A stretch of 64,000 nt of DNA from NCBI GenBank assembly GCA_043745805.1, contig JAYTSD010000043.1, forward strand, positions 96,001 to 160,000, in the 5' to 3' direction. Below, in pieces: positions 17,153 through 50,770 of the stretch (position 1 is its first letter; every line of letters begins with the position of its first letter). The notes beneath the pieces were generated by a model. That model made no database searches, was not told the origin of the DNA, and saw only the letters and a program-made list of their open reading frames with translations. The position numbers were made by a program, and so were the translations under genes. The stretch comes from Fibrobacteria bacterium (GTDB taxonomy: Bacteria > Fibrobacterota > Fibrobacteria > UBA11236).

Positions 17153-19549
17153 ATGCCGATTCAACCTTCATACCCTGGTGTTTATGTTCAGGAAGTTTCC
17201 AGTGGAGTAAGGACAATAACAGGTGTCTCCACTTCGATTGCCGCTTTTTTTGGACGAACATTAAAAGGTCCCATTAATAAAGCCGTGCGATGCCTGAGCT
17301 ATACTGATTTTTTGCGATACTTCGGCGGCGGCCATGCTCTGAGTGATACTGGGATTAGTGTTAAACAGTTCTTCGATAATGGGGGAACGGATTGTTATGT
17401 AGTTCGGTTGGCTAAAAATCCAGCAGTGGCCAGTGTAACTTTAAAAAATGAAACAGCAGTTACGAAGAATGTCCTTATTGTTACTGCCAAGGCAGAGGGA
17501 ACTTGGGGACAGCAAATAAAATTATTCACGGATTACAATACCACTAATCCAGATGATAGCTTCAACTTAACTGTTGTTCATGAAATTGATGGGGCTGTTT
17601 TAGCTCAAGAAGTTCACAGTTTTCTTTCCATGAATCCAAATTCATCACGCTTTGCACCCATTTTTGTTTCGCAATCTTCAAAATTTGTCAATCTGGCCAT
17701 TCATTCTGATTTAGGTGATCCTAATATTTCAGGGTCTATTATGAATTTAACCGCCAATACCCCCGCAGGTTATAGTCAAAGCCGCAGAGTGTTTACGGGA
17801 GTATCGGATAATGCGCTTAGGGATGCGGTCAAAACGGAGATTGAATCTAAAATTACTGCGGGTAAATCTAAGTTTGAAATCAATGTAAATGGGATTAATG
17901 CTACCGTCGATCTCAAGGGAATCGAATTAAGGCCTGACTGGACTACTCCTGTTCCTAATGATGTAACGGGTTTGTTACCTTCGCTTGCTGCGCATATCAA
18001 CCCGCAACTTCAGGCTGTGAATGCAAGTTTAGTTGTTGCGTTTAGCTGGGATACTTTGGCAACAAGAACTTTGGTATTAAGGGTAACATCCGCTGTTGCG
18101 CCATTTTCCAATGTGTCCATTCGACGAAGTAACTCCAATGATATTAGTGCTGCTTTGATGTTGGGTGTAGAGCAAGGTGGTATTGAGGTTGCACGTTACA
18201 GTAATCTTCGTCCAATCCCCAATGGATCCTATTTTTGGGGAGGCGGTACGTATGGAAATTTTACCACTGAACTCGATAAATTCGCCGTGCTGGCTCAAAA
18301 TGGAATAACGAGTATCACCCTTGGGACAAAGGTTATCCCTTTAAACCTTGTCACGGCCGGTACTTTGATTTACGAACAAGCCGCAGGCGCACTGGATGGG
18401 GTGCGAGAAAAACTACGACTCATTGTACAGGCCGTAAATGCGGATGTGAATTCCCCCTGTACCGCTGAGTTATGGGGATATCATCTCGTATTTAAGCGCA
18501 AGATGGGTAATATAAATGATACTGCTTCCATTACCACAAGTCCTGGGGCTAACTTTGGAAATGGATTTGTATCCAATGTAAAACAGTATAGCCTAGGAGC
18601 TCTGGGAACGGGTGTTTATCAATCTGCGGGTACAGCGGGTAGTGATGGTATTGCTCCAGATAAAAATACTTATGTGGGTAGCCCTGTTGATCATACCGGT
18701 TTTTATGCCTTGGATAAAGTGGACCTTTTTAACCTAATGATAATTCCTGGAGATCGTGAAGTGCTCGCCTCACTCTATGCAGAATTGATTGCGGAGGCCA
18801 GTAATTTTTGCCAGCAAAAACGCGCGTTTTTTCTGGCGGATGCTCCTGCAGATTGGACTCAAGGGGAAATCATGGCGGCGGATGCTAGCGCAGTTAACAA
18901 TATTCGCATAGGTGTGGCAAAAACAAATTCGGCAATATTTTATCCGCGAGTACAATTTAGTGATGGTGGATTGCGTAAGTATATCGGCCCTTCCGGCATG
19001 ATTGCAGGATTAATGGCCAGAACCGATTCTCAACGCGGAGTGTGGAAAGCACCTGCGGGCATTGATGCGGATTTGCGTGGTGTACTCGATGTAGAATTAA
19101 ACTTAACAGATAATGAAAATGGTGTGTTAAATAAATTAGGCGTGAACTGCCTGCGTAAATTTCCGAATGGAATTGTGAACTGGGGCGCACGTACCTTGGA
19201 TGGTTCAGATGATTTTGGTTCGGAATGGAAATATATTCCTATTCGTCGTCTCGCACTTTTCTTGGAAGAGTCACTTTTTCGCGGAACTAAATGGGTAGTA
19301 TTTGAACCCAATGATGAACCCCTTTGGGCTAAGATTAGAATGAACTTAAATGCATTTATGAATAGTCTATTTAGACAGGGTGCATTTCAGGGAAGTACGC
19401 CTGATAAGGCCTTCTTCGTAAAATGCGATGGAGAAACGACCACAGCTAATGATCGCAACTTAGGTATTGTAAATATTCAGGTTGGCTTTGCACCAGTTAA
19501 GCCGGCGGAGTTCGTCATTATTAGCATACAACAAATCCCAGATGTCTAA
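17153..19549 (+). CDS. Contractile tail sheath protein (Afp2/3/4-like)
   Basis: YPGVYVQE N-terminus, FFDNGG, RGVWKAPAG, WGARTL, WKYIPIRR, VVFEPND and GFAPVKPAEFVII; AGGAG RBS. Confidence 0.96.
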   Translation: MPIQPSYPGVYVQEVSSGVRTITGVSTSIAAFFGRTLKGPINKAVRCLSYTDFLRYFGGGHALSDTGISVKQFFDNGGTDCYVVRLAKNPAVASVTLKNETAVTKNVLIVTAKAEGTWGQQIKLFTDYNTTNPDDSFNLTVVHEIDGAVLAQEVHSFLSMNPNSSRFAPIFVSQSSKFVNLAIHSDLGDPNISGSIMNLTANTPAGYSQSRRVFTGVSDNALRDAVKTEIESKITAGKSKFEINVNGINATVDLKGIELRPDWTTPVPNDVTGLLPSLAAHINPQLQAVNASLVVAFSWDTLATRTLVLRVTSAVAPFSNVSIRRSNSNDISAALMLGVEQGGIEVARYSNLRPIPNGSYFWGGGTYGNFTTELDKFAVLAQNGITSITLGTKVIPLNLVTAGTLIYEQAAGALDGVREKLRLIVQAVNADVNSPCTAELWGYHLVFKRKMGNINDTASITTSPGANFGNGFVSNVKQYSLGALGTGVYQSAGTAGSDGIAPDKNTYVGSPVDHTGFYALDKVDLFNLMIIPGDREVLASLYAELIAEASNFCQQKRAFFLADAPADWTQGEIMAADASAVNNIRIGVAKTNSAIFYPRVQFSDGGLRKYIGPSGMIAGLMARTDSQRGVWKAPAGIDADLRGVLDVELNLTDNENGVLNKLGVNCLRKFPNGIVNWGARTLDGSDDFGSEWKYIPIRRLALFLEESLFRGTKWVVFEPNDEPLWAKIRMNLNAFMNSLFRQGAFQGSTPDKAFFVKCDGETTTANDRNLGIVNIQVGFAPVKPAEFVIISIQQIPDV

Positions 19550-19578: not shown

Positions 19579-20100
19579 ATGGCCAAAGGTTTTGAAAAAA
19601 ATGCAAAGCGTATTGATCCTTATAAAAATTTTAAGTTCCGTATTCTATGGGACAATAAAACTGTATTAGGAGTTAGCAAGGTCAGCGCTTTAAAACGTAC
19701 TACCGAAGTGGTTTCGCATCGCGATGGGGGTGACAATAGCACTGATCATAAATCACCTGGTCGCACTAAATATGATGGCATCACCTTGGAACGTGGATTA
19801 ACCCATGATCCAGAGTTTGAAAAATGGGCAAATAAAGTTCATCCCTACGCGGGCGACTCGGCCATGGATTTAGCCGATTATAAAAAAAACTTAACCTTAG
19901 AAATGATGAATGAAAAAGGGCAGGTGGTTTATCGCTACTTTCTTTATCATTGCTGGGTTAGCGAATACACGGCCATGCCCGAGCTCAATGCCAATGCCAA
20001 TGCTATATCTATCGAATCTTTAAAAATAGAACTTGAAGGTTGGGATAGAGATTTGGATACCAAAGAACCGAATGAAAGTGATGACGTACCGAAATCATGA
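19579..20100 (+). CDS. Tail tube protein (T4 gp19 / Afp1-like)
   Basis: DPYKNFKF, KSPGRTKYDGITLERG, and CWVSEY..PELNA...IE motifs. Confidence 0.95.
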   Translation: MAKGFEKNAKRIDPYKNFKFRILWDNKTVLGVSKVSALKRTTEVVSHRDGGDNSTDHKSPGRTKYDGITLERGLTHDPEFEKWANKVHPYAGDSAMDLADYKKNLTLEMMNEKGQVVYRYFLYHCWVSEYTAMPELNANANAISIESLKIELEGWDRDLDTKEPNESDDVPKS

Positions 20101-20950: not shown

Positions 20951-21934
20951 ATGCCAAACTATTTTTCACGTCTTGCTGAGCAGAGTGGTTTTCAATTTAA
21001 GGGAAGCCAAGGAGTAAGGCCCGAAGTATTAGAAAAAAAAGCGGGTAGTGGACTTTCTCCGCTTGAACAAGAAGCGACGATTTTAAGTCCATCGCAACCA
21101 TTAGAAAAATCTTCCCTAACCTTAATAGATTCGAATAAGCATGAAATGCAACCCTCCATTTCTAAAAATGAAGAAATTAAAAATGAGCCTTCAGAGAAAG
21201 CGCCTATTAATCCGAAGGAAATTTTTGCTCAAAAACAGGTAACTCGTGAAGTTAATCCAATTGTCCAAAACATAGATTCTGTGACTGCGCCAATGGAAAA
21301 TAAAACCCTTGCTGCATCGCTTTTCAATAAAGCGATATTGCCTGTGAATAAAATGAACGAAAATAGTTTATCACAGGAGTCGAAAGAGTTTAAATCACCG
21401 AGTGCTGTTAAATTAGCTGATCCTGTTGAAGCGTCAGTACCGATACAAGATTCACCTCAGTTTGAGTCAGCAGAAAAACAAGAAAGCATTGTGTCTCTCC
21501 TTTCACCTTTGGAGAATTCTGAAAAGCCAAATTATTTTTCCAGAACTTCGGAGATTTTGAATCAAGGTCAAATCGAAAAACAGGATATTCATTCTCTTAT
21601 TCTGCAAGATGTTCAGGAATGGGTTGCGGCTTCGCCCACGGATACAAAAACGGTAAAAAGTAATATTGAAGTATTCAATACGGCTTTAAATTCAGAACCT
21701 GTATTCTCAAATGAGATAACTGATCCGTTAACACAAAATTTGTTTCGATCTAGAAATGCAGAAGTAGAAAGTTCGTTGGAACATAACTTTAATCTTTCCA
21801 TTGGATCCATTAGTATTATTATTGATGAACCCACAAAACCACAGCATTCAGAATTTAAAAGCCAGCCACAACCTCAACCTACAATACCGAAAAACGAAAA
21901 TCGTTTTTCGCGACTTAGTCGAAGTTATCTCTAA
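20951..21934 (+). CDS. Hypothetical low-complexity eCIS protein (tape-measure/accessory candidate)
   Basis: S/E/K/P-rich disordered body between short conserved-looking ends (YFSRLA; LSIGSISIII). Confidence 0.55.
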   Translation: MPNYFSRLAEQSGFQFKGSQGVRPEVLEKKAGSGLSPLEQEATILSPSQPLEKSSLTLIDSNKHEMQPSISKNEEIKNEPSEKAPINPKEIFAQKQVTREVNPIVQNIDSVTAPMENKTLAASLFNKAILPVNKMNENSLSQESKEFKSPSAVKLADPVEASVPIQDSPQFESAEKQESIVSLLSPLENSEKPNYFSRTSEILNQGQIEKQDIHSLILQDVQEWVAASPTDTKTVKSNIEVFNTALNSEPVFSNEITDPLTQNLFRSRNAEVESSLEHNFNLSIGSISIIIDEPTKPQHSEFKSQPQPQPTIPKNENRFSRLSRSYL

Positions 21935-21948: not shown

Positions 21949-23172
21949 ATGGCACTTGCTGATACATCAAAAGCTATTGGAGCCGTTACTAAAGGGCTTA
22001 AAGAACGTCTTGAATTTAGAACGGGTTATCATGTAAGTGCAGGTCGCATTGAAAAGCCCAATTTGACTATAGACGAGGCCTACTTAAATCTTTTTTTATA
22101 TGAAATCGCTTTTGATCCGCAATTAAAAAATACACCATTAAATGAAGGTGAAAAGCCACCTATATGGTTGGTGTTGAAATTTTTGCTAACCGCCTTTGCC
22201 TCGAAAACAGAAAGCGATACTCAAGCTGCCCATGAAATATTAGGTTTGGCGATTCGAGCTATTTATCAAGATGATTTGCTAAAACTAAATGGATTGGGAG
22301 ATGTCAAACCTTTAGAAAGTAATCCGAGTGAATTGCATGTTACCTTTGAGGAATCACCAGCTGATCTGGTCGCGAAGTTAACCCAGGGTTCTGATGAAAC
22401 GCCAAGACTTTCCATTGCCTTTCAAGTGCGTCCGGTGATGATTGCCTCAGCAGAACCCGGCCATTATTCTTTGCTTGTGGGTGTGGATTATACTAAACCG
22501 CCAATTACCCTTTCACCAGCGCCCGTTGGGCTGGATGTAATTCCTTCCATGGGATCCTTTATAACCGAGATAGTACCCTCAGGATTTGAAGTGAATGAAG
22601 AGATTACTCTGCGTGGTACGGATCTGCATTTGGCGAATCTCTCGGTGATGCTTGGATCAGTTGAACTCCCTATAACCATGCAGCAACCTGATGAATTAAA
22701 GTTTAAAATCGATAGTGCGATTATTGCAGCGAGTGGACTTTCCGCTGGAAGTTATTCGGTTATGATTGTGCAAACTCTTCCGGGTACGGGTAAAAAACGC
22801 AAGAGCAATGCGCTAATAGGAAATTTAGTACCCACACTTTTGAATGCTCCGATAGCGGCATTTAGCCTTATGGTTATTCCCGCAATTCCTCCCAGTAGTT
22901 TCGACACCGCTTATGCCACTATTAATCTGAATGGTATATTGCTAGGAAATAAAAATGATGATGTGATACTTGCTCTTTATCGTGATGGTAAAGTGTATCA
23001 ATCTTTTGACGTATTTTCTGTGTTACCCGTCCCACAACCTCCCTTACAACCTGCACAGCAATTGAAGATGATTGCTAAGGACGCGGTGCCCGTGGGTGAC
23101 TATCAGGCCATTTTACTAGTTAATGGGCAACAAGCTCCTCAAAGTCCAATTATTTCCCTGCATAATCCATGA
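21949..23172 (+). CDS. DUF4255/Pvc16-Afp16-like cap (tail terminator) protein with C-terminal IPT/TIG-like domains
   Basis: AIGAVT..LK..L, LNLFLYEI, LKFLLTA and RLSIAFQVRPVMI; later FITEIVP....ITLRGTDL (IPT-like). Confidence 0.8.
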   Translation: MALADTSKAIGAVTKGLKERLEFRTGYHVSAGRIEKPNLTIDEAYLNLFLYEIAFDPQLKNTPLNEGEKPPIWLVLKFLLTAFASKTESDTQAAHEILGLAIRAIYQDDLLKLNGLGDVKPLESNPSELHVTFEESPADLVAKLTQGSDETPRLSIAFQVRPVMIASAEPGHYSLLVGVDYTKPPITLSPAPVGLDVIPSMGSFITEIVPSGFEVNEEITLRGTDLHLANLSVMLGSVELPITMQQPDELKFKIDSAIIAASGLSAGSYSVMIVQTLPGTGKKRKSNALIGNLVPTLLNAPIAAFSLMVIPAIPPSSFDTAYATINLNGILLGNKNDDVILALYRDGKVYQSFDVFSVLPVPQPPLQPAQQLKMIAKDAVPVGDYQAILLVNGQQAPQSPIISLHNP

Positions 23173-25332: not shown

Positions 25333-25593
25333 ATGGCTAATCGAAATATTCACATTGAAAATATACAAGTTAGCATGCCACCTCATTTGGTAGTGCAGGC
25401 GCATGAAATAGGGAATGGACTTGGTCAGGCTATTCTGCATGCCATTGCTGAATCTACGCTTGGAAAACATGGCCATAAAAAAATAGCCGCCTTAGAGGTC
25501 GGAAAAGTGAGTGTGAAAAACTATGCCGAACCGCGAGGAATACAACAACAAATTGCGAGTCATGTGGCGAATACGATTCGGGAAAAATTCTAA
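25333..25593 (+). CDS. Small hypothetical eCIS protein
   Basis: 86-aa ORF tightly packed in the operon, with N-terminal IHIENIQV strand. Confidence 0.65.
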   Translation: MANRNIHIENIQVSMPPHLVVQAHEIGNGLGQAILHAIAESTLGKHGHKKIAALEVGKVSVKNYAEPRGIQQQIASHVANTIREKF

Positions 25594-41772: not shown

Positions 41773-42237
41773 TTGAAAATGACTATAAAACAAAAAACTC
41801 GCCTTGAGCAAACGGCTGCTGAATTTGATAATATCGTATTAGCGCTCGATCAAGTTCGTACTCTGCAAATCGCAGATGGACATAGTCTTGAAAATGCGAA
41901 GGGCAATGTTTATGAAAGAGAACATGAACGTTTGTTGCGAAAATTTGGAAAAGAACATCCTCGTACCGTAGAAATGGGATTGCGAATCAAAGGCAATGAA
42001 AAATATAAAACGGCGATTATTGTAGAATACAAAAAAGCCTCTTCGTCGATTGAAAAAAAATCTCAGCGTCCAGCACCCCCTAATAATACAGGCTCAAATA
42101 AATTTACCAAGGTTGCAGAAGCAAAGGTAACCGATGCCAAGGAAACAACGCCTTCTCCTGAATCTGGAAGAGAAGTTCCTAAAACATCGGTAACAAAAAT
42201 AGTGAAGAAAACTGCCGCTAAGAAAAAGAAAAAATAA
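41773..42237 (+). CDS. Hypothetical helical eCIS-associated protein with Lys-rich tail
   Basis: TTG start after GAGG; RE.ERL..KFG.EHPR motif; basic C-terminus. Confidence 0.65.
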   Translation: MKMTIKQKTRLEQTAAEFDNIVLALDQVRTLQIADGHSLENAKGNVYEREHERLLRKFGKEHPRTVEMGLRIKGNEKYKTAIIVEYKKASSSIEKKSQRPAPPNNTGSNKFTKVAEAKVTDAKETTPSPESGREVPKTSVTKIVKKTAAKKKKK

Positions 42238-42282: not shown

Positions 42283-45200
42283 ATGAAGGCATTGGTTTCA
42301 GAAAAAGCTGAGGTAGAGAAGGCTGGAAAAGTCTCAACTAGCCATAGCTCTGATAGTCTACAGCCAATTTTTGGATCCGCCAACCAATCCTCTCCTTCTA
42401 TATTTCGCAAAGCGACTTGTGCTTGCGGCGGTGGTTGTTCTAGTTGTCAAGCTTCTACGAATGATTTAAAAATATCTCAACCTAATGATCCCGCAGAAAT
42501 TGAAGCGGATCAAATAGCGGATAGGGTAATGCGCATGCCGAAGGAAAATGTTTCTTCGGATAGTAACATGCAACGGTCATCCAAAGTCGATGGAAATAAT
42601 CTCCAACGAAAATCATTACCCTCAAGTAGTGGAATTATTTCTCAAAGTTCTGGGCATGTGCAAAATGCCATGCAAAGTGGTGGTCGTCCTTTAGAGCTTG
42701 GCACTCGTAATTATTTTGAACCAAGATTAGGTTATGATTTAAGTTCCGTCCGTCTGCATACGGATGCAAAAGCGAATGAGTCGGCTCATGCTCTCAATGC
42801 AAAGGCTTATACCGTTGGCAAAGATATTGTATTCGGGCGCGATGAATACAAAACAAATTCTGAGGGCGGGAATCGTTTATTGGCCCATGAGCTTGCACAT
42901 GTCACACAGAATAATTCTGTCATTCATCGGGATGAAAAACCCGATGCCGTAGTTGATCCTGTAGAAGTGAGGCTTGAAGGGCTCCCCGAAGACGGACTTA
43001 AATTAATGGCGAAGTCCACACGTGTGGATGCGAATATAATTGATAAGGAGATGGTAAAGAATGGAGATTTGGTTTTTCCCGAATTTGGGGTGCACGATAA
43101 TCAAGGGAAAACCTGGGCCTGGATAAATGTGCCTAGTAGAAATGCAATAGATGTACCCATCAATAAACTTTATGCAAAAGATCGCAGGTTTAACTATCCA
43201 ATTTTGCATGGATTTATTGAATTCAAATATTTGGGAAATATTACTATTCATATTACTATATATGCTAAACCACCGGTAAAGATAGATCCTCCGGCTCCGG
43301 TTTCTTTAGAACCCCCTAAACGAGATAAACCCGCTGCTCCTGAAACACAATCTGCCAAAGATTTGATCAATCATGAAACATCTTGGTACCTAGAATTAAA
43401 TGAGGAGGCGCTTGGAAAAAAGCTACTTGAATATGCAGATGGAGGAAATTTTTCTACACCCGATTCTGTACTTGAAGAGCTTGGTAGTAGTGATCGTGAT
43501 GATGTCTCCTTTGAATTAATAAAGGCATCCAGCGAGGAACAGCTTTCGGGAATGGCAGAAACTGAACAGGGCAGAAAATTTTTAGATCGACTCTATGATG
43601 AATTAACCAGCGGATCTGCAGATGAAGCGGAAACGGTGCAGGCTGAGCGAATTCTCATGGCCAAGGCGCGTCGAATCGACCCGGAAAAATTCATGAATGC
43701 GGATAAATATGCTATGGTTATTCCCTTTTCTGCTTCTGGATTTACCAAATTCAATTCAGCTTCACTTTCAGTTCATCGAATGGATAATGGAAATATTTGG
43801 GTACGTAGCCATATGACAGGGGAACATTACCCGAATTCAAAAATTTCGCCTGAACATTATGCCATTATGTATTCGGGAATGGAAATGGACCCTGATACAG
43901 TAGTTGGGCTTTATCTTTATGATGATGGAGGTAAAATCATTTATATGCCTGCACTCTACCTCCTTCAGCTTAGTAATAGTGAAACTACTAAAATTGGTAC
44001 TATGGCTGGTGAGGCATTTTTAACTGGCTTAACCCTTGGTGCTGGTGGTGAAGCTGTTGCCATTGCGGAAGGTGCAAATGCGTCGCGTGCAGCCATTTGG
44101 GGAGCTCGGGCATTTACGGTGCTTAAATGGACTGATAGAGCGGCTGCGGTTTTCGCTGCAGCAAGTACAATAATTAATGAGCATCGTGGTTGGATTATCG
44201 AAAAATTTGGCGAAGATGGACGTGAATTTCTAAAAGATTGGGCAAAAGTTGATCGCATTCTAATGATTTATGGGTTGGCAAGAGGTGCCGTTGCCTTAGG
44301 CCAAATGGGATGGGGTTTGCGGGCAAGCTACAAGAATTGGCGTTCGGCAGCTGATAAATTGGATGATTTGGCTGAAGATGAGAAAAAAATAGTTAATGAT
44401 TTAGCCTCAAATACGGAATCGACTATAGAGGAAATAGAAACTGCCCAAAACAATGCAGGCATGGGAACAAAAGCGGCTACCACCGATGCTGCAAAGCAAA
44501 TGGATGAAGCTACTGATGATATTAAAGTTTTGAATAAAAATGATATTACCGTTTCTAATACTGGAAAAGCAACCGGTGAAGTTGAAGAGGCAGGAGCGGA
44601 GGTTGTTGAGCTTGACAAATACCGACAGCAAAAATCTTTAAAACAAAAAGCACGTCAGCCTGCTCAGCAAATGAAAAAAACCGGCACAGATGATACTGTG
44701 GCGGTAGCGCAAGATGCGCCGATTGCAGCTAATGACAATGTCGAAATAGTTTCTGATTCAACTACAACAACAACAGGTAATTCTACTCGTAACGCAAAAG
44801 TTACTCCTATTAATGGGCAACCGAAAGTTGACCTTTCTGAATTTACCAATGGTGCGAAGCTAGAAAAAGATAAATGGATTGGGAAAAAATGGAAAAAAGG
44901 AGATCCCCTTCCTGAGGGTTATGTCAGCCTTGAAGATGGTGGAATACGAAGGGGTCCTGGATTTCGTGAAAAAAATTATGTACCCCTTGAAGTAAAAGAA
45001 GGAAAGCTTGTTGTGGGAACGGGTGGTGAACGCATAAGTAACCCCTCGGTAATGAATCGGAATTATAAGAAGGGATTGGCTCAAGATTTGGAAGTTAAAA
45101 ATCCAAGTTGGTCAAAGGCAAGATTAGAAAAGGAAGTGGCAAAGGAAGTTGAAAAAAATGCCGTTCATCATTTAATACCTGATAATGTGGTTCAGGACCA

Positions 45201-45555
45201 TCCTCTCGCTCAGGCGGCAAGAGATGTTGGATACGATCTGGACAATAGTGAAAATTTAATTGGGTTACCTAAATCCAAATCCCTCACCGATATTGAGGCA
45301 GGGGAAATGGGACATTGGACAAGCCATCCTCAATATGACAAGATTGTAAAGGACGAGCTCACAAAGGTTCAGAAATTATTGGAAAAAAAATTCGGAAGCC
45401 TAGACAAAGTTCCTAAGCAAAGATTAATGGATGCGATGAAAAATGTTGAAGAGAAACTTCAAAAACTTATTGAAGACGGTTTGGCTCCAATCAAAGATGG
45501 TCACCTCGCCGAAGAAGAACAGGAGGAATCCAAAAATCCATCTTCATTTGCCTAG
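42283..45555 (+). CDS. DUF4157 (eCIS core, HExxH) polymorphic toxin with C-terminal AHH (HNH-fold) nuclease
   Basis: CACGGGCSSC leader; GRPL...FEPRLG.DLSSVRLHTD..A.AYTVG.DIVFG..LLAHELAHV; C-terminal VHHLIP...YDLDNSENLIGLP...H..SHPQY. Confidence 0.88.
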   Translation: MKALVSEKAEVEKAGKVSTSHSSDSLQPIFGSANQSSPSIFRKATCACGGGCSSCQASTNDLKISQPNDPAEIEADQIADRVMRMPKENVSSDSNMQRSSKVDGNNLQRKSLPSSSGIISQSSGHVQNAMQSGGRPLELGTRNYFEPRLGYDLSSVRLHTDAKANESAHALNAKAYTVGKDIVFGRDEYKTNSEGGNRLLAHELAHVTQNNSVIHRDEKPDAVVDPVEVRLEGLPEDGLKLMAKSTRVDANIIDKEMVKNGDLVFPEFGVHDNQGKTWAWINVPSRNAIDVPINKLYAKDRRFNYPILHGFIEFKYLGNITIHITIYAKPPVKIDPPAPVSLEPPKRDKPAAPETQSAKDLINHETSWYLELNEEALGKKLLEYADGGNFSTPDSVLEELGSSDRDDVSFELIKASSEEQLSGMAETEQGRKFLDRLYDELTSGSADEAETVQAERILMAKARRIDPEKFMNADKYAMVIPFSASGFTKFNSASLSVHRMDNGNIWVRSHMTGEHYPNSKISPEHYAIMYSGMEMDPDTVVGLYLYDDGGKIIYMPALYLLQLSNSETTKIGTMAGEAFLTGLTLGAGGEAVAIAEGANASRAAIWGARAFTVLKWTDRAAAVFAAASTIINEHRGWIIEKFGEDGREFLKDWAKVDRILMIYGLARGAVALGQMGWGLRASYKNWRSAADKLDDLAEDEKKIVNDLASNTESTIEEIETAQNNAGMGTKAATTDAAKQMDEATDDIKVLNKNDITVSNTGKATGEVEEAGAEVVELDKYRQQKSLKQKARQPAQQMKKTGTDDTVAVAQDAPIAANDNVEIVSDSTTTTTGNSTRNAKVTPINGQPKVDLSEFTNGAKLEKDKWIGKKWKKGDPLPEGYVSLEDGGIRRGPGFREKNYVPLEVKEGKLVVGTGGERISNPSVMNRNYKKGLAQDLEVKNPSWSKARLEKEVAKEVEKNAVHHLIPDNVVQDHPLAQAARDVGYDLDNSENLIGLPKSKSLTDIEAGEMGHWTSHPQYDKIVKDELTKVQKLLEKKFGSLDKVPKQRLMDAMKNVEEKLQKLIEDGLAPIKDGHLAEEEQEESKNPSSFA

Positions 45556-45672: not shown

Positions 45673-47841
45673 ATGTTTAGTCAAACCACAAAATTATCTG
45701 AACAAAAATCCGACTATAAAAGTAAGTCGCATGGAAGCAATTCAGATTATGGAAGAACTGAACAATTTAATAAAAACTCGTCTGAGCACTTATTGTATCG
45801 CAAAGCAGCCTGTCCTTGTGGCGGCGGTTGTTCGACTTGTCAATCCTCCTCTAATGATTTAAAAATATCCCAACCTAATGACACAGCAGAAATTGAGGCT
45901 GATCAAATTGCGGATAAGGTAATGCGTATGCCTGCCGATATTCCCATGAAAGTAAATACTAATATTTCTGTAACGGATAAGTTACATGCGAAATGTGACA
46001 CCTACGAGGAAGAGAAAAAAACCGAAACGATTTTTAGAAAAGAAGGATTTGATGCAGTAAGTAGTTCTGCTTCAATATATGAAAATTCTTCAGTAAAAAG
46101 CGTCGTTAATTCCAATGGCCGATCTCTTGATTCTGCAAGTCGATCATTTTTCGAGCCTCGATTTGGTCGAGATCTTGGCCATGTTCGAGTGCATAATGAT
46201 TCCACAGCGGCCAATTCTGCTCGTGCTATAAATGCACGTGCCTATACAGTTGGGAGTAATATTGTTTTCGGTAAAGGTGAATATGGACCTGAGCATGAAA
46301 GAGGCAGACATTTATTAGCGCATGAGCTTGCACATGTGATGCAACAGGAGGGCTCTTCATCGAAATTAGATCGCAGCGTTATTTATCGGCAACCTTTAAG
46401 CGACGAGCAACAAGACTTAAATAATATTGACATTGAGATTGAAATTTTGAGTGAGCAATTATTAGATCCAATGGCTGCGCCATTAATGATGCGAATAAAT
46501 TATTTACAACAACGAAAAGCCATTTTATTAAGTCGAACATCGGCAACAATACCACGAACACAGAAATCTCTCAATGAAGAAGCTGTTCGCCTAGGCACCA
46601 AGCAAGCTATTCGGCGAAATCTTTGGGATGATTTAGATAAAATTCCTTCTTGGATCATTGAGGATTGGTTGTCAACGGATTTAATTCAAAGTGTAACCAA
46701 AGAACTTAATCTTTATTGGGATTCGGATGAAAAGGCTTTTATTCGCAATCGGATTGTTGATGCAATTGAACACGATGTAATGAACAACATTGAGGCAAAG
46801 AGAATTTATAATGCAACGGTTTGGGACTTAACAGTAAATAGAAAAGTTGAAAAATCTTGGTTTAAAAAATCCATGGATGTTGTCTGTGATTATACGAATC
46901 CCTGTCATGGTAACATGGAAGAATTTCATGCGGACATTGAAAGTGGAATGAGCGTAGAGGAAGCACGCAAACACGGACTCAATCGGATATTTGGATGGGG
47001 TTTGGAGCAATCTCTCTCTTTTGGTGGATCGAGTGAATCTGGAAGTAGTAATGGACCAAAATTGGAATTAGTACCAGGAAAATTTTCTAACCCTATTCCT
47101 GCAACATCAGAAATCACCGGTGGAAATCCAGGTATGATTCGTGAAAGTGTTCCTAAAATACCCATTCATCCGGAGCCTATATGGGAGCCCACTCCCATAA
47201 CGAAGCCAAAAGCAGCTCCGGAAGCTTTACCTGAACATACTACTACATCGTCAGACAATACTGGGGTGGTTCGAGCATCCAAACCACCACCAAAATTGAA
47301 TCCTAATTCAACTAATAGTACTAATGAAAATCCACAACCCTTCCCCGTTCCACCCACAATCCGAATTAAACCTCCCGACGTTGATACTGATTTGGATAAA
47401 AAAAAGCGTCGGGGAAAATGCACTTATGAATCTATTGGCCAGCAATCAGGACGATTTCCATGTCATGCCGATTATGCGAAAAAATTAAGTGGCGTTCCGC
47501 GTGAAGTAAGAATTCAAAGTCCCGACGGAGAATCTGTGGATTTCGATGCAATGGATCATGGGAATACTTTGTATGAAGTTAAAACGGGGTATCGTTGGAT
47601 AGCCTTCATGAGTGACGGACCGCGGAAGACTGAAATAATTACCAGGTTTTGGACACAAGCTATTTCTCAAATAATAGTCGCAGCAAGTTGTGGTCATCCG
47701 TTAATGTGGTATTTTAATGATCCCTATGCCGCTAGTTTTTTTGGGGCTGAGAATTCACCGTATCCGAATTACTTTCAGATTCATTTACCCGTTCGGGTTT
47801 GGTATGTTCCCTTCAACTGCAAGGAGGATAGCGATGGCTGA
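45673..47841 (+). CDS. DUF4157 polymorphic toxin with C-terminal PD-(D/E)xK restriction-endonuclease-fold domain
   Basis: CPCGGGCSTC leader; DUF4157 with HELAH; Pro-rich linker; VDFDAM...LYEVKTGY...Q...A..CG..L.WYF (Tox-REase-5/DUF6310-like). Confidence 0.82.
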   Translation: MFSQTTKLSEQKSDYKSKSHGSNSDYGRTEQFNKNSSEHLLYRKAACPCGGGCSTCQSSSNDLKISQPNDTAEIEADQIADKVMRMPADIPMKVNTNISVTDKLHAKCDTYEEEKKTETIFRKEGFDAVSSSASIYENSSVKSVVNSNGRSLDSASRSFFEPRFGRDLGHVRVHNDSTAANSARAINARAYTVGSNIVFGKGEYGPEHERGRHLLAHELAHVMQQEGSSSKLDRSVIYRQPLSDEQQDLNNIDIEIEILSEQLLDPMAAPLMMRINYLQQRKAILLSRTSATIPRTQKSLNEEAVRLGTKQAIRRNLWDDLDKIPSWIIEDWLSTDLIQSVTKELNLYWDSDEKAFIRNRIVDAIEHDVMNNIEAKRIYNATVWDLTVNRKVEKSWFKKSMDVVCDYTNPCHGNMEEFHADIESGMSVEEARKHGLNRIFGWGLEQSLSFGGSSESGSSNGPKLELVPGKFSNPIPATSEITGGNPGMIRESVPKIPIHPEPIWEPTPITKPKAAPEALPEHTTTSSDNTGVVRASKPPPKLNPNSTNSTNENPQPFPVPPTIRIKPPDVDTDLDKKKRRGKCTYESIGQQSGRFPCHADYAKKLSGVPREVRIQSPDGESVDFDAMDHGNTLYEVKTGYRWIAFMSDGPRKTEIITRFWTQAISQIIVAASCGHPLMWYFNDPYAASFFGAENSPYPNYFQIHLPVRVWYVPFNCKEDSDG

Positions 47842-48231
47842 GGCATTGGGTTTAAAAAAAATGACAATGGGAGAAACCCATTCAAAGTCATTAATGCAGA
47901 AGTCGAAAAATGAATTTTATAATGACGAAATAAAATCCTCATTTGATAGCTTACCATTTTGGGGTCCGGATACGAAAATCAATCGCAAAGCCTCTTGCCC
48001 TTGTGGCGGCGGTTGTTCGACTTGTCAATCCTCCTTCAACGATTTAAAAATATCTCAACCCAATGATGCCGCAGAAATTGAAGCGGATCAAATAGCGGAT
48101 AAGGTGATGCGCATGTCCGCCGATGTTCCGGTGAAAGTAAATACTAATATTTCAGTAACTGATAAGTTACATGCGAAATGTGACAGTTGCGAGGAAGAGA
48201 AAGAAACCGAAACTGTTTTTAGAAAGGAAAG
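45799..48231 (+). repeat. Dispersed ~250-bp repeat (45799-46046 and 47984-48231; shorter copy 42406-42540) encoding the shared DUF4157 leader
   Basis: Near-identical DNA such as tgtggcggcggttgttcgacttgtcaatcctcc, gatttaaaaatatc.caacc.aatga and aaagtaaatactaatatttc.gtaac.gataagttacatgcgaaatgtgaca. Confidence 0.85.
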
Positions 48232-50770
48232 TTTTGCTGCCGCAATGGAACCTCCTCCCGAGGAGATAAGCTCCACAGTAAAAAGAACTCTAAATTACGG
48301 TGGAAAATCACTAGACGAAAATAGTAGAGCATTCTTTGAACCTCGTTTTGGGATAGATTTTAGTCATATCCAAATTCACAATGATTCCCACGCTGCCGAT
48401 TCTGCGCGTTCGATCAATGCTCGTGCTTACACGTTTAGCAATAATATTGTTTTCGGAAAAGGTGAATACCAACCTGAAAATGAAGCTGGAAAGGCATTGC
48501 TCGCCCATGAATTAGCCCATGTTGCTCAACAAAAAAATGGAAGTATTTCACCAAAAATACATCGGCTAGTAGGTGATGAGGAATCCGAGGTTACCTCTGC
48601 AAGCACGGAATCTACCCATGAAGCTGATGTTGCAACGGAGGAAAGTTATACAGACCGGCTTGTTAGGGAAGCCATCGAAAATGTATCCGTTCACATGGCA
48701 CGTACCATGCGAGCTACTAGTCAGGTACCCATTCCAGAAACCATCATGGCCGCCCTTATTGCGGCTGAGGTGAGTTTTTTGTATCGGAGTTATGAGCGAT
48801 TAGTTGAACGGGGCGAAGGCCTACAAATACTTAGTCGAATTACGGAGTTATTGAGCCCACTCGTTTTTGCCGAATTCTGCGCGCGATTTATTTGGGGAGT
48901 GATTCAGGGTTTGGTCAGTCCCATTACCGGTTTAGTGCATTTGGCTGCAGGGGCTATTCGACTAACTTTGTCCGCACTTGATTGGCTAGATACTCTGCCC
49001 TCGCGATTTCCCGCCTTGGTTGAAGAAGCTCAGGCGCTTAATGTTGCCATGACAGTATTTGGTACCCAAGCTTCCACCATATTGGAGTCCCTTACAAATC
49101 GAAGCAATTTGTTAACCTTCGCCGGTGGAATTTTCGAAGCCGCAACTTCCGCATCGGATGCAATAGAACATACAATAGTACGAGGAGCTCAAGCACAGGG
49201 GCGTTCAGCGGCAGATTCTTTGGCTACCCATTTTCTCGAAACTCCGCTTCCAGAACTGGCAGAAACTTCGGGAGAAATTATTGGCACAGTCATAATTGAA
49301 TTAGTAATTCTGATATTTACTGACGGAGTAGGAAATCTCATTACTAAACTTGGAGAGTTTGCTCGTTCGCTAAGACCATTATCTCGTGGGGTTGTAGCTT
49401 TTACTGAAGTTGCAATTCGCGCAGGCCGTATTATTTCACAAATCGAGCATTTGATTGGAGTGCTGCTTAGCAGAACGGTTTTACGTCCATTAATGCCTTT
49501 ATTTGAGGCTTTAGAACCGTTACTTATAAGGATGAGAAGTTTTACTCAAAGCTTGATTGGTGCGGGAGAAGAAAGTGCCATAGTACTCGCACGTAGAAGT
49601 GCAAGGGCTATTGAAGAAACTGCTGCCGCTACCACGCGTACCTCTGAAAGAGCAGGATCACATCATACCACTATGCGAACATCGCCACCTCGGAATCCTG
49701 CAACATCGGCTCCGCGAGTTACGGAGCCAATTCCAGAAGCAGCTGTAGTTGAACCCATTTCCGAACCATTAATGATGGAGCCACGAGTTACGGAAACGCC
49801 TAGGGAACCTGTCGTTACGGACTCGGAACCAAGACCTTTGTCCTCTGAACCCGAAGCGACAAATCCTACGACGGAAACTATTGAACCCCGTGCACCTGAA
49901 GCTGGGCTTAATCCCCAAGAGTTAGCTGAAGTTGGACCGGTCAATGATGAAACCCTAATTAATTTTCAAGAGCATCCCGATCGATTACAAGCATGGGCAG
50001 AAAATCCGGAAGCTGCTGAGGCATTTAGATTTTGTAATTCTCCTTGCTTTCCCGAAAACATGACACCAGATCAAATTCGCAGAGCCGAAGCAATCATGCG
50101 GGATTTTCCAGAATTCGCACGAGCCAATCGCAGATCCCTTCATGAAGCCTTTGAAGCTGCCGATGAAGATGGCATAGAAGTTTTGCTTGAGGGACTTGAT
50201 ACTCGATTAAGGAGTCCGATAGAGGATGTTGTTGATCCTATGATGGATCCGGCGGATCGAGAGCTTTTATCAGGAACAAGTGAAGCCGACGCACCGACTG
50301 GATTAAGGGAATCTGAAGAAATGGCGGCAGATCGTGTTGAAGCCGGTTTGACTCCACGAGAGGCTTGGGAGCCACCAAGTGGTGTAAGACCTAGACCATC
50401 CGAGACATCAACCATTTCAGAACGGACTGAATGGATGCGTGAACGATTACAAATGCATGTTGACGAGGCCATTGAACACTATCGAGTAGGTGGAGGTTTA
50501 ACTTCAGCGCAAGAGGCGGCTTTGTTGAAAAATCCTCACATGTTACCTGCGTTTCGCGGTAGTCGTGTAGATCAGTTTGCCAAGGATACCATCATGCAAG
50601 ATATTGATCTTGCCGATATTGTTACGGCCCCTGATTTTTTTGCTGAACCTGATATCCTAAGTTCTATTTTACCAGAATGGTTTGATATCACGACTCGAGC
50701 CGCTTGGGTGGCGCATATTCAAAGATATCAATCTCGTTATGGTTTGGGTGTTCTTTTGCCAACGAATTGA
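47834..50770 (+). CDS. DUF4157 polymorphic toxin with hydrophobic helical region and uncharacterised C-terminal domain
   Basis: The ATG at 47834 follows AAGGAGG and overlaps the previous stop, so it is a better start than 47717. CPCGGGCSTC leader, HELAH, Gly/Ala/hydrophobic helices, and C-terminal FRG..VD...PDI...WFDITT...W..H...Y. Confidence 0.82.
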   Translation: MAEALGLKKMTMGETHSKSLMQKSKNEFYNDEIKSSFDSLPFWGPDTKINRKASCPCGGGCSTCQSSFNDLKISQPNDAAEIEADQIADKVMRMSADVPVKVNTNISVTDKLHAKCDSCEEEKETETVFRKESFAAAMEPPPEEISSTVKRTLNYGGKSLDENSRAFFEPRFGIDFSHIQIHNDSHAADSARSINARAYTFSNNIVFGKGEYQPENEAGKALLAHELAHVAQQKNGSISPKIHRLVGDEESEVTSASTESTHEADVATEESYTDRLVREAIENVSVHMARTMRATSQVPIPETIMAALIAAEVSFLYRSYERLVERGEGLQILSRITELLSPLVFAEFCARFIWGVIQGLVSPITGLVHLAAGAIRLTLSALDWLDTLPSRFPALVEEAQALNVAMTVFGTQASTILESLTNRSNLLTFAGGIFEAATSASDAIEHTIVRGAQAQGRSAADSLATHFLETPLPELAETSGEIIGTVIIELVILIFTDGVGNLITKLGEFARSLRPLSRGVVAFTEVAIRAGRIISQIEHLIGVLLSRTVLRPLMPLFEALEPLLIRMRSFTQSLIGAGEESAIVLARRSARAIEETAAATTRTSERAGSHHTTMRTSPPRNPATSAPRVTEPIPEAAVVEPISEPLMMEPRVTETPREPVVTDSEPRPLSSEPEATNPTTETIEPRAPEAGLNPQELAEVGPVNDETLINFQEHPDRLQAWAENPEAAEAFRFCNSPCFPENMTPDQIRRAEAIMRDFPEFARANRRSLHEAFEAADEDGIEVLLEGLDTRLRSPIEDVVDPMMDPADRELLSGTSEADAPTGLRESEEMAADRVEAGLTPREAWEPPSGVRPRPSETSTISERTEWMRERLQMHVDEAIEHYRVGGGLTSAQEAALLKNPHMLPAFRGSRVDQFAKDTIMQDIDLADIVTAPDFFAEPDILSSILPEWFDITTRAAWVAHIQRYQSRYGLGVLLPTN

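What the first reader, a model, noticed from the sequence alone, without database searches (positions are those of the whole stretch)
17153..50770. Near-complete contractile injection system with a toxin array but no lysis, anchoring or immunity genes
Seen: one sheath, one tube, chaperone, cap, AAA ATPase, split hub and spike, PAAR-like tip, gp25, two baseplate-J proteins, wedge, DUF6519 fibre and three DUF4157 toxins. There is no head, holin/endolysin or TssJLM-like gene in the window. Established: this gene set defines eCIS-type loci (Afp/PVC/MAC relatives). Inference: a little-studied DUF6519 subtype in a probable Fibrobacterota host, with an unknown release route (unlinked lysis genes or membrane-tethered firing).
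Basis: partly seen in the sequence, partly recalled or inferred. Interest (0 to 1): 0.8.

Follow-up and report, generated by a model that had tools for sequence, protein, structure and literature searches.

The report
Phage-tail-like toxin injector gene cluster
An intact 21-gene cluster in an uncultured sediment bacterium encodes a phage-tail-like syringe with three toxin cargo proteins; it belongs to a type that is already catalogued but has never been studied at the bench, so it is a solid but unsurprising find.

Summary
Window 17153-50770 (+) is one tightly packed run of 21 intact genes: sheath, tube, cap, AAA+ ATPase, split Afp7-like pair, split hub and spike, PAAR-like tip, gp25, two Baseplate-J proteins, a Tail_P2_I-like wedge, a DUF6519 beta-helix fibre and three eCIS_core (DUF4157) cargo proteins. 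The window has no head, lysis, membrane-complex or immunity genes. RpoB relatives place the host in Fibrobacterota.

The locus is not a new kind. Two afp11 copies, a split afp8 and a PAAR are the published gene-content marks of dbeCIS lineage II subtypes IIa/IIc. DUF6519 is the published "eBAP5" fibre anchor (658 genes). Missing immunity genes are already described for most tested eCIS toxins, and lysis genes are not among the published core domains. The same architecture occurs in a related Fibrobacterota genome and in Arenimonas and Plasticicumulans, which points to horizontal spread.

Cargo 2 ends in a TseT-like PD-(D/E)xK nuclease fold (Z 10.3). Cargo 3 is unassigned. All six cargo proteins compared share a Cys-rich N-terminal leader.

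The mode of action cannot be read from sequence. The closest solved sheaths come from a cytoplasmic and a membrane-bound system. The extracellular mode is favoured because there is a fibre and no membrane protein. This scan had not reported the locus before.

The parts
17153..19549 (+). g1, contractile sheath, 798 aa, enlarged by about 300 residues between the conserved N- and C-terminal parts
   Evidence: Pfam Phage_sheath_1 and Phage_sheath_1C. Best solved relatives 8bky_A E 1.7e-73, 9ezm_A 2.9e-71. It is the only sheath match in the genome.
19579..20100 (+). g2, inner tube protein, 173 aa
   Evidence: Pfam Phage_T4_gp19 E 1e-40; TIGR02241 E 1.4e-40.
   Evidence: Below cut-off DUF6760; phrog_150 'baseplate hub' E 3.8e-4. 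The 11-sequence alignment includes a Streptomyces row; C104, C107, C211 and C214 are invariant. No match among solved structures.
20951..21934 (+). g4, low-complexity 327-aa protein; candidate tape measure, inferred from position and composition only
   Evidence: No family match. Matched only in G006, 32% identity over the C-terminal half. Sequence.
21949..23172 (+). g5, tube/sheath cap (Afp16/Pvc16 type) with a C-terminal extension, 407 aa
   Evidence: Pfam Pvc16_N E 1e-16, 61.6 bits.
23169..25328 (+). g6, AAA+ ATPase (Afp15/Pvc15/Alg15 type), 719 aa
   Evidence: Pfam AAA E 4.8e-28 at residues 496-621. The role in cargo loading is taken from the AlgoCIS preprint.
25333..25593 (+). g7, 86-aa protein of unknown function
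   Evidence: No family match. 40% identical copy in G006.
25611..26273 (+). g8, tube-like half of an Afp7/Cis7-type baseplate hub protein (weak)
   Evidence: Below cut-off CIS_tube. The 11-sequence profile hits 9rce_H 'peptidoglycan-binding protein' E 0.047.
26287..26589 (+). g9, LysM-like half of Afp7/Cis7 (weak)
   Evidence: The 8-sequence profile hits the C-terminal LysM part of All3321 (7b5h_AK, E 0.018), Kbp LysM (0.021) and the AlgoCIS LysM protein (0.49).
26591..27748 (+). g10, gp27-like hub half of a split Afp8/VgrG
   Evidence: Profile hits residues 73-349 of 9gtr_q (E 5.8e-4), 9qgm_8A, 9rce_F and Afp8; phrog_196 'baseplate hub' E 0.0019.
27748..28392 (+). g11, gp5 OB-fold spike half of a split Afp8/VgrG
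   Evidence: Pfam Phage_base_V E 1.5e-14.
28393..28728 (+). g12, PAAR-like spike tip
   Evidence: Below cut-off DUF4280. The 7-sequence profile hits the phiKZ PAAR tip 6p1z_D E 0.0032.
28733..29113 (+). g13, gp25-type baseplate wedge protein
   Evidence: Pfam GPW_gp25 E 5.1e-10.
29122..31758 (+). g14, first Baseplate-J (Afp11-type) protein, 878 aa
   Evidence: Pfam Baseplate_J; TIGR02243 E 6.8e-45.
31755..35357 (+). g15, second Baseplate-J-like protein, 1200 aa
   Evidence: TIGR02243 E 7.5e-36; phrog_219 'baseplate wedge subunit' E 3.3e-17.
35362..38010 (+). g16, Tail_P2_I-like wedge/adaptor, 882 aa
   Evidence: Pfam Tail_P2_I 19.1 bits, below the 20.6 cut-off. 40-70% identical orthologues at the same position in G006, Arenimonas and Plasticicumulans.
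38023..41742 (+). g17, fibre: DUF6519 (eBAP5) N-terminal anchor plus right-handed beta-helix, 1239 aa
   Evidence: Pfam DUF6519 37.2 bits (cut-off 22.4). Beta_helix and Pectinesterase matches are below cut-off.
41773..42237 (+). g18, 154-aa lysine-rich protein of unknown function between the fibre and cargo genes
   Evidence: No family match. 39% identical copy in G006.
42283..45555 (+). g19, cargo 1: Cys-rich leader, eCIS_core/DUF4157, long linker, C-terminal AHH (HNH/EndoVII) nuclease
   Evidence: Pfam eCIS_core E 4.8e-29 and AHH E 5.4e-13. Histidine pair and downstream histidines present. 71% identical orthologue in G006.
45673..47841 (+). g20, cargo 2: leader, eCIS_core, helical middle part, C-terminal TseT-like PD-(D/E)xK nuclease fold
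   Evidence: eCIS_core E 1.2e-30. D625, E635 and K637 invariant in 23 sequences. The C-terminal domain has pLDDT above 90 over most of residues 580-715. VIA Z 10.3 and 10.1 to 9oz0_B and 7dym_A.
47834..50770 (+). g21, cargo 3 (978 aa from the corrected start): leader, eCIS_core, hydrophobic helical domain, Pro-rich linker, about 110-aa C-terminal module of unknown function
   Evidence: eCIS_core E 9.3e-30; start codon. Only 12 relatives, all eCIS_core proteins. No fold match.

Best explanation
This is one operon for a complete lineage-II contractile injection system of the DUF6519/eBAP5 baseplate type. Shown by homology: the genes encode sheath, tube, cap, ATPase, hub, spike, tip, wedge proteins, a fibre and three cargo proteins.

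Inferred mechanism:
- The particle assembles in the cytoplasm on a baseplate made of g8-g16.
- Tube length is possibly set by g4.
- The AAA+ ATPase g6 feeds the three cargo proteins into the tube lumen through their shared N-terminal leader, as described for AlgoCIS.
- The particle leaves the cell when the producer lyses, by genes that are not linked to the locus and not identified.
- The beta-helix fibre g17 binds a surface glycan on a target cell.
- The sheath contracts and the spike delivers the cargo: two nucleases (AHH type and TseT-like PD-(D/E)xK type) and one unknown cargo.

The nuclease modules are of kinds known from interbacterial toxin systems, so other microbes are the likeliest targets (inference). 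The locus spread horizontally between phyla.
For: The full set of CIS parts is present, 11 of 21 ORFs above Pfam cut-offs. All 21 ORFs are open and packed, with four overlapping gene junctions. The order g1-g18 is conserved at 32-88% identity in G006 within an unrelated neighbourhood: 0 of 8 flanking proteins matched. The 3' half (g14-g17, then 2 or 3 eCIS_core genes) is conserved in Arenimonas and Plasticicumulans, and 5 of 5 long-sheath genomes tested have DUF6519 downstream, 4 above cut-off.

The fibre is present and has the domain make-up published for eBAP5 fibres, including a pectin-lyase-type beta-helix. No protein of the locus has an N-terminal signal-like or convincing membrane helix: the hydrophobic stretches flagged in g5 and g6 contain prolines or charges, and those in g15 and g21 are internal.

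The cargo architecture of leader, DUF4157 and C-terminal domain matches AlgoCIS Cgo1/Cgo2, whose N-terminal region is needed for loading and whose Alg15 ATPase mediates it. Six cargo proteins (three here, three in G006) share the leader. The sheath tree places the locus with G006 (SH-aLRT 100), then with Arenimonas, Plasticicumulans and G011 (96), inside a 13-row clade spanning five named phyla (100).
Against: No lysis genes were found. There are none in the window, and the 99%-complete genome gave 0 hits for Phage_lysozyme, Amidase_2 and Glyco_hydro_108; for the last, no control genome rang. Only these three endolysin families and no holin family were searched.

The closest solved sheaths belong to a cytoplasmic system (Streptomyces) and a membrane-bound system (haloarchaea), not to a released one. 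A 2026 paper states that mode of action cannot be reliably predicted from sequence alone.

Two nuclease cargos have no adjacent immunity gene, so how the producer survives is unexplained. The Tail_P2_I, PAAR-like and Afp7-like assignments are weak, and the tape-measure and loading steps are analogy only.
Confidence: 0.55

Rival explanations
1. Cytoplasmic, self-directed system like Streptomyces CIS-Sc or the Roseiflexus CIS. The particles stay in the producer, fire under stress and kill the producer itself. Neither a lysis cassette nor immunity genes would then be needed, because the nucleases act on the cell's own DNA.
For: The best solved sheath match is S. coelicolor Cis2 (8bky_A, E 1.7e-73). 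That system is cytoplasmic and mediates cell death. There are no immunity genes beside the two nuclease cargos and no lysis genes were found.
Against: The Streptomyces clusters lack a fibre and belong to subtype IId, which has a single afp11 and an unsplit afp8. This locus has a large beta-helix fibre, two afp11 copies and a split afp8. In the sheath tree the two Streptomyces rows fall in the other main clade of 50 rows. No CisA-like membrane protein is evident from hydropathy; homology to CisA itself was not tested.
Confidence: 0.12
2. Membrane-tethered, contact-dependent firing of a T6SS-like mode, as in the haloarchaeal CIS, T6SS subtype iv or the thylakoid-anchored CIS. The baseplate and fibre would dock on the inner face of the producer's cytoplasmic membrane.
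For: The second-best solved sheath is the Halogeometricum Cis2 (9ezm_A, E 2.9e-71). That cluster also has two cis11 genes, and archaea occur in subtypes IIa/IIc. In the thylakoid-anchored system, fibre-like proteins do the anchoring.
Against: The haloarchaeal mode correlates with a dedicated membrane protein (Hbor_38620) in the cluster. Here no protein of the locus has a convincing membrane helix. A Gram-negative host would need a route through the peptidoglycan and outer membrane, and no such envelope-spanning genes are in the window. The haloarchaeal toxins come with immunity genes (section title seen); here there are none.
Confidence: 0.12
3. Prophage remnant or R-type tailocin: a degraded phage tail that kills by membrane puncture alone.
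For: Sheath, tube and baseplate genes are phage-tail homologues.
Against: The locus has the eCIS-specific AAA+ ATPase, Pvc16-type cap and three eCIS_core cargo genes. The pyocin sheath is a very distant match (E 1.1e-6, against 1e-73 for CIS sheaths). There are no head, terminase, integrase or lysis genes in the window, no Terminase_6N hit in the genome and no tRNA in the window.
Confidence: 0.02
4. Silent or decaying cargo of horizontal transfer that is not expressed in this host.
For: The locus GC of 41.7% is at the 97th percentile of 33-kb windows in a 40.0% genome. The sheath phylogeny is incongruent with host taxonomy.
Against: All 21 reading frames are intact over 33.6 kb. The orthologous cluster in a different genus (G006) is also intact, with conserved order and diverged, partly exchanged cargo ends. 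That pattern fits maintained function.
Confidence: 0.1

Closest known systems
dbeCIS lineage II, subtypes IIa/IIc (Chen et al. 2019, PMC6899500) and the eBAP5/DUF6519 fibre class (Nachmias et al. 2026, PMC12923769)
   Same: Two afp11 copies, afp8 split into gp27 and gp5 ORFs, PAAR present, and no typical Afp14 (rules quoted; met). The DUF6519 N-terminal anchor sits on a fibre downstream of a Tail_P2_I gene and has a beta-helix C-terminus.
   Different: No member of this class has been studied experimentally, as far as the passages I read show. eBAP5 is reported as correlated with Actinobacteriota, whereas this host is Fibrobacterota. 'Fibrobacter' does not occur in the 5 of 6 supplementary files of that paper that could be searched. 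The choice between IIa and IIc was not settled, because no Afp11 tree with dbeCIS references was built.
Streptomyces coelicolor CIS-Sc (Casu et al. 2023, PMC10066040; PDB 8BKY)
   Same: Best solved sheath relative (E 1.7e-73). It has the same general lineage II gene order starting with sheath and tube, and g3, g8, g11 and g12 homologues are present in the Streptomyces loci L059/L076.
   Different: It is subtype IId, with no fibre, and acts in the cytoplasm. IId loci have a single afp11 and an unsplit afp8. It sits in a different main clade of the sheath tree.
Halogeometricum borinquense T6SS-like CIS (Zachs et al. 2024, PMC11566945; PDB 9EZM)
   Same: Second-best solved sheath (E 2.9e-71). It has two cis11 genes.
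   Different: It is archaeal, membrane-bound through a putative anchor protein in the cluster, and has toxin-immunity pairs. None of these is seen here.
AlgoCIS of Algoriphagus machipongonensis and its cargo Cgo1/Cgo2 (PMC8894135 seen in a search listing only; preprint 10.64898/2026.05.27.728243, passages read)
   Same: Cargo built as N-terminal leader, DUF4157 and variable C-terminal domain, with several cargo genes per locus and an AAA+ ATPase implicated in loading.
   Different: It is a lineage I relative and its sheath is a distant match (E 6e-37). The AlgoCIS leaders are described as disordered and system-specific. Here the leader carries a conserved four-cysteine motif.
Afp (Serratia) and PVC (Photorhabdus)
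   Same: Same core parts list.
   Different: They are lineage I, with three sheath paralogues, two tube paralogues, an unsplit Afp8, and Afp12/13/14. Afp has an upstream lysis cassette. The sheath matches are only E 1e-44 to 1e-23.
TseT (PA3907) T6SS nuclease effector of Pseudomonas aeruginosa (PDB 9OZ0, 7DYM)
   Same: The fold of the g20 C-terminal domain: Z 10.3 and 10.1, rmsd 3.5, 121 residues aligned. The next nuclease-fold row scores Z 6.0. There is an invariant D...ExK motif.
   Different: 14-16% sequence identity. TseT is delivered by a T6SS and crystallised with an immunity protein (entry titles). No Imm52 match was found in this genome, but that search had no positive control. That TseT belongs to Tox-REase-5 and TsiT to Imm52 is recalled, not from a call.
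eCIS operons of cultured Fibrobacter spp. in eCIStem (Geller et al. 2021, supplementary operon table)
   Same: Same phylum: 8 operons are listed. A DUF4157 gene lies at the 3' end of the UWH6 operon.
   Different: The UWH6 operon is labelled in a different order, with the cap first, two tube genes, a single afp8, and afp12/13/14. This locus is therefore a second, unrelated CIS type in the phylum.

Membership tests
eCIS/CIS superfamily (Afp-like core set of Chen 2019 and Geller 2021) | Sheath and inner tube genes | tested here: met
   Phage_sheath_1, Phage_sheath_1C and Phage_T4_gp19, all above cut-off.
eCIS/CIS superfamily (Afp-like core set of Chen 2019 and Geller 2021) | Afp8-type spike and Afp11-type Baseplate-J, the pair that co-occurs in 98.7% of loci according to Geller 2021 | tested here: met
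   Phage_base_V on g11, hub profile match for g10, Baseplate_J/TIGR02243 on g14 and g15. The rule is quoted.
eCIS/CIS superfamily (Afp-like core set of Chen 2019 and Geller 2021) | AAA+ ATPase (Afp15) and DUF4255/Pvc16 cap (Afp16), which set eCIS apart from phage tails and tailocins | tested here: met
   AAA 98.7 bits; Pvc16_N 61.6 bits.
eCIS/CIS superfamily (Afp-like core set of Chen 2019 and Geller 2021) | DUF4157/eCIS_core genes associated with toxins at the 3' end | tested here: met
   Three eCIS_core proteins at the 3' end. They are the only three in the genome.
eCIS/CIS superfamily (Afp-like core set of Chen 2019 and Geller 2021) | No capsid or packaging genes linked | tested here: met
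   0 of 24 flanking ORFs. Terminase_6N gave 0 hits in the genome; only that one terminase family was searched.
eCIS in the strict sense (released, extracellular action) | Particles released from the producer and active from outside | not testable with these tools
   Needs particle purification or cryo-ET. The literature warns that sequence does not settle the mode.
dbeCIS lineage II subtype IIa or IIc | Two afp11 copies | tested here: met
   g14 and g15 both match TIGR02243. Rule.
dbeCIS lineage II subtype IIa or IIc | afp8 split into gp27-like and gp5-like ORFs | tested here: met
   g10 and g11. Rule.
dbeCIS lineage II subtype IIa or IIc | afp10 (PAAR) present, which excludes IIb | tested here: met
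   g12: DUF4280 below cut-off; profile hit to the phiKZ PAAR tip E 0.0032. The support is weak.
dbeCIS lineage II subtype IIa or IIc | Placement on the Afp11 tree with dbeCIS reference loci | not tested
   No dbeCIS reference sequences were on hand. Only a sheath tree of 87 rows drawn from genome collections was built.
eBAP5 (DUF6519) baseplate type (Nachmias 2026) | N-terminal DUF6519 domain on the fibre | tested here: met
   37.2 bits against a cut-off of 22.4, residues 1-167.
eBAP5 (DUF6519) baseplate type (Nachmias 2026) | Tail_P2_I adaptor gene just upstream of the fibre | tested here: inconclusive
   g16 scores 19.1 bits, below the 20.6 cut-off. Its position and conservation fit.
Cytoplasmic CIS (Streptomyces type, subtype IId) | No fibre gene; single afp11; unsplit afp8 | tested here: not met
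   A fibre is present, there are two afp11 copies and afp8 is split. Rules.
Cytoplasmic CIS (Streptomyces type, subtype IId) | CisA/Sco4242-type membrane protein in the cluster | tested here: inconclusive
   No convincing membrane helix in any of the 21 proteins. Homology to CisA itself was not tested, because no sequence was on hand.
Membrane-anchored CIS (T6SS subtype iv, haloarchaeal, thylakoid-anchored) | Dedicated membrane anchor protein or trans-envelope complex genes | tested here: inconclusive
   None seen by hydropathy or by family scans of the window. The known anchors have no family model that I searched.
R-type tailocin or prophage tail | Linked holin/endolysin cassette; no ATPase, cap or cargo genes | tested here: not met
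   No lysis genes in the window. ATPase, cap and cargo genes are present.

The most novel reading that the evidence does not exclude
In this Gram-negative Fibrobacterota lineage the particles are not released at all. They fire inside or from within the producer, either as a stress- or phage-triggered suicide device or as a contact-dependent weapon. This would explain at once why two potent nucleases carry no immunity genes and why no lysis genes can be found. In that case the DUF6519 beta-helix 'fibre' would dock on the cell's own envelope, not on a foreign surface.
Probability: 0.15. Interest if true: 0.7.

Novelty: new member of a known kind. Interest (0 to 1): 0.3.

Why it matters
The locus adds a complete example of the uncharacterised DUF6519/eBAP5, lineage II injection system in Fibrobacterota. 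The only catalogue records I found for that phylum are operons labelled in a different gene order, in cultured gut Fibrobacter. The same cluster is shared with Gammaproteobacteria, so it documents cross-phylum spread. It also gives a compact natural case of the open question already raised in the field: how do producers load nucleases without immunity proteins, and how do particles get out? Here there are two nuclease cargos of recognisable type, a shared cysteine-rich leader and an intact 33.6-kb operon that could be expressed heterologously. The value is as a test system. It is not a surprise.

Tried and rejected
- The search for related loci with the single g14 protein found no relative. 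It was repeated with a sheath alignment.
- Single-sequence searches of solved structures with g14, g10 and g5 gave nothing usable. The g3 profile gave nothing.
- Protein-atlas look-alikes for the C-terminal parts of g20 and g21 scored only 0.80-0.88, pointing to REase-fold toxin clusters. I used them as leads only. The lead held for g20 but not for g21.
- Relaxed Pfam scans of the cargo C-terminal parts, g18, the sheath insertion and the cap extension gave nothing new (one search was my frame slip).
- The AlphaFold model of g21 had mean pLDDT 54.5, and Foldseek against PDB gave only helical noise, best E 0.094. The cargo 3 function stays unknown.
- The Foldseek E-values for the g20 model were all above 0.09, because the model has 722 residues. 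The VIA second look gave the clear TseT match.
- Promoter and terminator scans at both ends were uninformative.
- Sequencing runs: four DNA runs of one sediment study hold the stretch and no RNA holder is listed, so nothing can be said on expression.
- Complex prediction of g16 (1-600) with g17 (1-380) returned no verdict.
- The Imm52 and Glyco_hydro_108 searches of the genome were blank, but no control genome rang either.
- The Fib_succ_major domain (TIGR02145) is not found in this genome, so the host is not like cultured Fibrobacter in that respect.
- Earlier notes of this scan on the same genome concern other loci.

Full report
**What is there.** The window has 21 co-directional ORFs from 17153 to 50770. 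By my reading of those coordinates, gaps run from -8 to 117 bp, with four overlapping gene junctions. Pfam matched 15 of the 21 at E<=0.01, 11 above the curated cut-off. These are sheath (g1), gp19 tube (g2), Pvc16_N cap (g5), AAA ATPase (g6), gp5 OB spike (g11), gp25 (g13), Baseplate_J (g14), DUF6519 with a beta-helix (g17) and three eCIS_core proteins (g19-g21), the first ending in an AHH nuclease.

NCBIfam puts TIGR02243 'baseplate assembly protein' on both g14 and g15, and PHROGs calls g15 a baseplate wedge subunit. Profiles built from orthologues fill further gaps:
- g10 matches the N-terminal, gp27-like half of CIS VgrG/Afp8 chains (best E 5.8e-4).
- g12 matches a PAAR tip (E 0.0032).
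- g8 and g9 weakly match the tube-like and LysM halves of Afp7/Cis7-type proteins (E 0.018-0.49).

g4 is low-complexity and poorly conserved, and is a tape-measure candidate by position only. g7 and g18 are unknown. The third cargo gene starts most likely at 47834.

**Surroundings.** None of 24 flanking ORFs matches head, lysis, integrase or T6SS membrane-complex families. Ten flanking ORFs, eight of them without a Pfam hit, gave nothing of that kind in NCBIfam. The neighbours are TonB-receptor-like and Ig-domain proteins and an imelysin/DHOR cluster upstream, and an ABC sugar transporter, SDR, FolB, NUDIX and a PorV-like gene downstream. No free ORF lies between or behind the cargo genes. The window has no tRNA. 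The locus GC is 41.7% in a 40.0% genome.

**Host.** The genome is 3.95 Mb in 50 contigs and 99% complete. Among the 120 listed relatives of its RpoB, 15 carry an organism name and all 15 are Fibrobacterota, with the closest named rows at 70-74% identity (Fibrobacterota, Fibrobacteria, Fibrobacterales). Five fibro-slime domain genes are present, against 0 of 14 control genomes. The Fib_succ_major domain is not found. The DNA occurs in four sediment metagenome runs of one study.

**Relatives.** A sheath search of 41 genomes of the host's class found matches in 11, but full-length ones only in G006 (78% identity) and G011 (52%). In G006 all of g1-g18 recur in the same order at 32-88% identity, followed by three eCIS_core genes, while none of 8 flanking proteins matched. 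The cargo ends are partly exchanged: the AHH cargo is first here and last there, and the g20 C-terminal domain sits on a different protein.

A quick maximum-likelihood tree was built from 87 sheaths, one best match per locus, with no row dropped. It pairs the window with G006 (SH-aLRT 100), then with Arenimonas, Plasticicumulans and G011 (96), inside a 13-row clade with Bacteroidota, Acidobacteriota, Chloroflexota and Myxococcota (100). Other sheaths from the host's own class fall elsewhere in the tree, and the two Streptomyces rows lie in the other main clade of 50 rows.

All 5 long-sheath genomes tested have a DUF6519 match downstream of the sheath, 4 above cut-off. The Arenimonas and Plasticicumulans loci continue g14, g15, g16, g17 and then 2 or 3 eCIS_core genes, one with a GH-E HNH nuclease and one with an OmpA domain. 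No lysis cassette was seen beside any of these loci. One difference within the wider family concerns the first DUF4157 gene. In 44 of the 59 loci with an ATPase match, a DUF4157-region match lies within 4 kb after the ATPase. In this locus, L009, L010, L016 and 11 others none lies in the stretch fetched.

**Comparison with the literature.** I read passages, not whole papers, unless stated.
- Chen 2019 defines lineage II subtypes by gene content. IIa and IIc have two afp11 copies. IIa, IIb and IIc split afp8. Only IIb lacks afp10. afp14 is generally absent from lineage II. This locus meets the IIa/IIc rules.
- Nachmias 2026 names DUF6519 'eBAP5'. It is found in 658 fibre genes, is tied to Tail_P2_I adaptors, often has pectin-lyase beta-helices, is correlated with Actinobacteriota and is called a previously missed subtype.
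- Geller 2021 describes DUF4157 at the N-terminus of toxins at the 3' end with long linkers. It calls the lack of immunity genes next to most of its verified toxins an 'intriguing mystery', and its model has particles released after cell lysis.
- A 2026 review reports an upstream lysis cassette for Afp.
- The AlgoCIS preprint shows that the N-terminal region of Cgo1/Cgo2 is required for loading, that DUF4157 is dispensable, and that the Alg15 ATPase mediates loading.
- 'Fibrobacter' is absent from the main texts of Chen 2019, Geller 2021, Nachmias 2026 and the 2025 MAG survey. It is also absent from the 5 of 6 Nachmias supplementary files that could be searched.
- Geller's operon table does list 8 operons in cultured Fibrobacter spp.. 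The UWH6 operon is labelled in a different order: cap first, two tubes, single afp8, and afp12/13/14.
- Three supplementary files of Geller 2021 were not searched.

**Cargo.**
- Six cargo proteins (three here, three in G006) share an N-terminal leader with a C-x-C-G-G-G-C-x-x-C motif followed by a conserved acidic stretch, then the HExxH-bearing DUF4157 domain. The same motif is in the majority consensus of 23 DUF4157 proteins from elsewhere.
- g19 keeps the AHH histidines.
- The g20 C-terminal domain has 22 relatives, all on DUF4157 proteins, with D625, E635 and K637 invariant. It is modelled with pLDDT above 90 over most of residues 580-715. It aligns to the P. aeruginosa T6SS effector TseT at Z 10.3 and 10.1 (rmsd 3.5, 121 residues), well above the next nuclease-fold row at Z 6.0.
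- The g21 C-terminal part has only 12 relatives, all DUF4157 proteins. It has a conserved hydrophobic helical domain, a Pro-rich linker and a module of about 110 residues, and no fold match.

**Mode of action.** The best solved sheath relatives are S. coelicolor Cis2 (cytoplasmic, cell death), E 1.7e-73, and Halogeometricum Cis2 (membrane-bound, contact-dependent), E 2.9e-71. Pvc, Afp, thylakoid-anchored CIS and AlgoCIS sheaths score from 1e-44 down to 1e-23. Both of the closest systems depend on, or correlate with, a membrane protein encoded in the cluster. Here no protein has a convincing membrane helix; the flagged hydrophobic stretches of g5 and g6 contain prolines or charges. A large beta-helix fibre is present.

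I therefore favour the extracellular mode (0.55), while noting the published warning that sequence alone is unreliable for this. Genome searches for Phage_lysozyme, Amidase_2, Glyco_hydro_108 and Terminase_6N were all blank. The GH108 search had no positive control, and no holin family was searched. The release route stays open.

**Verdict.** The locus is a new member of a catalogued but uncharacterised kind. The features stressed in the title (no lysis, anchoring or immunity genes) are common in the superfamily and not special to this locus. Interest is modest.

Noticed in passing
window 42283-42700, 45673-46130, 47834-48300; L089 (G006): All six cargo proteins compared share an N-terminal C-x-C-G-G-G-C-x-x-C motif and a conserved acidic stretch just before DUF4157. 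The motif also appears in the consensus of 23 unrelated DUF4157 proteins. It may bind a metal and be part of the loading signal. The AlgoCIS work describes leaders as disordered and not conserved between systems.
   Followed up: partly
window 17750-18640 (sheath residues about 200-495): The sheath carries an insertion of about 300 residues with no Pfam match. Enlarged sheaths of 634-830 aa are typical of the 33-row clade of the tree, against roughly 505-620 aa for most rows of the other main clade.
   Followed up: partly
window 1-12612: The upstream block has 47-50% GC in a 40% GC genome, which is more deviant than the injection locus itself. It holds CarboxypepD_reg/Plug receptor-like proteins, a 1030-aa Big_7/Y_Y_Y protein and a metallophosphoesterase. 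It may be foreign DNA.
   Followed up: no
window 12733-16577 (- strand): An imelysin (Peptidase_M75) gene, a di-haem DHOR peroxidase-like gene and a 425-aa unknown gene form a likely iron-uptake cluster divergent from the injection operon.
   Followed up: no
window 57250-61298: A PorV/PorQ-family gene (type IX secretion) lies next to two STAS-domain proteins, one of them fused to PEGA domains. G006 has a GH95 protein with a type IX sorting domain beside its injection locus.
   Followed up: no
L092:15438-15932 (Arenimonas, G042): A 164-aa DUF4240 gene sits between the two cargo genes of the Arenimonas locus. It may be an immunity or accessory gene that the Fibrobacterota loci lack.
   Followed up: no
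L093:238-4930 (Arenimonas, G042) and L009:7480-9767 (Plasticicumulans): Mobile-element genes flank the related loci: filamentous-phage Rep_trans, DUF2523 and Zot downstream in Arenimonas, and an integrase plus a KfrA-like gene upstream in Plasticicumulans. These are possible vehicles for the cross-phylum spread.
   Followed up: no
G027:C7:173501-180428 (relative of the host, same order): This genome has six sheath-like matches clustered within 7 kb, that is, several tandem sheath paralogues, on a very long branch of the tree. It is a different injection-system type.
   Followed up: no
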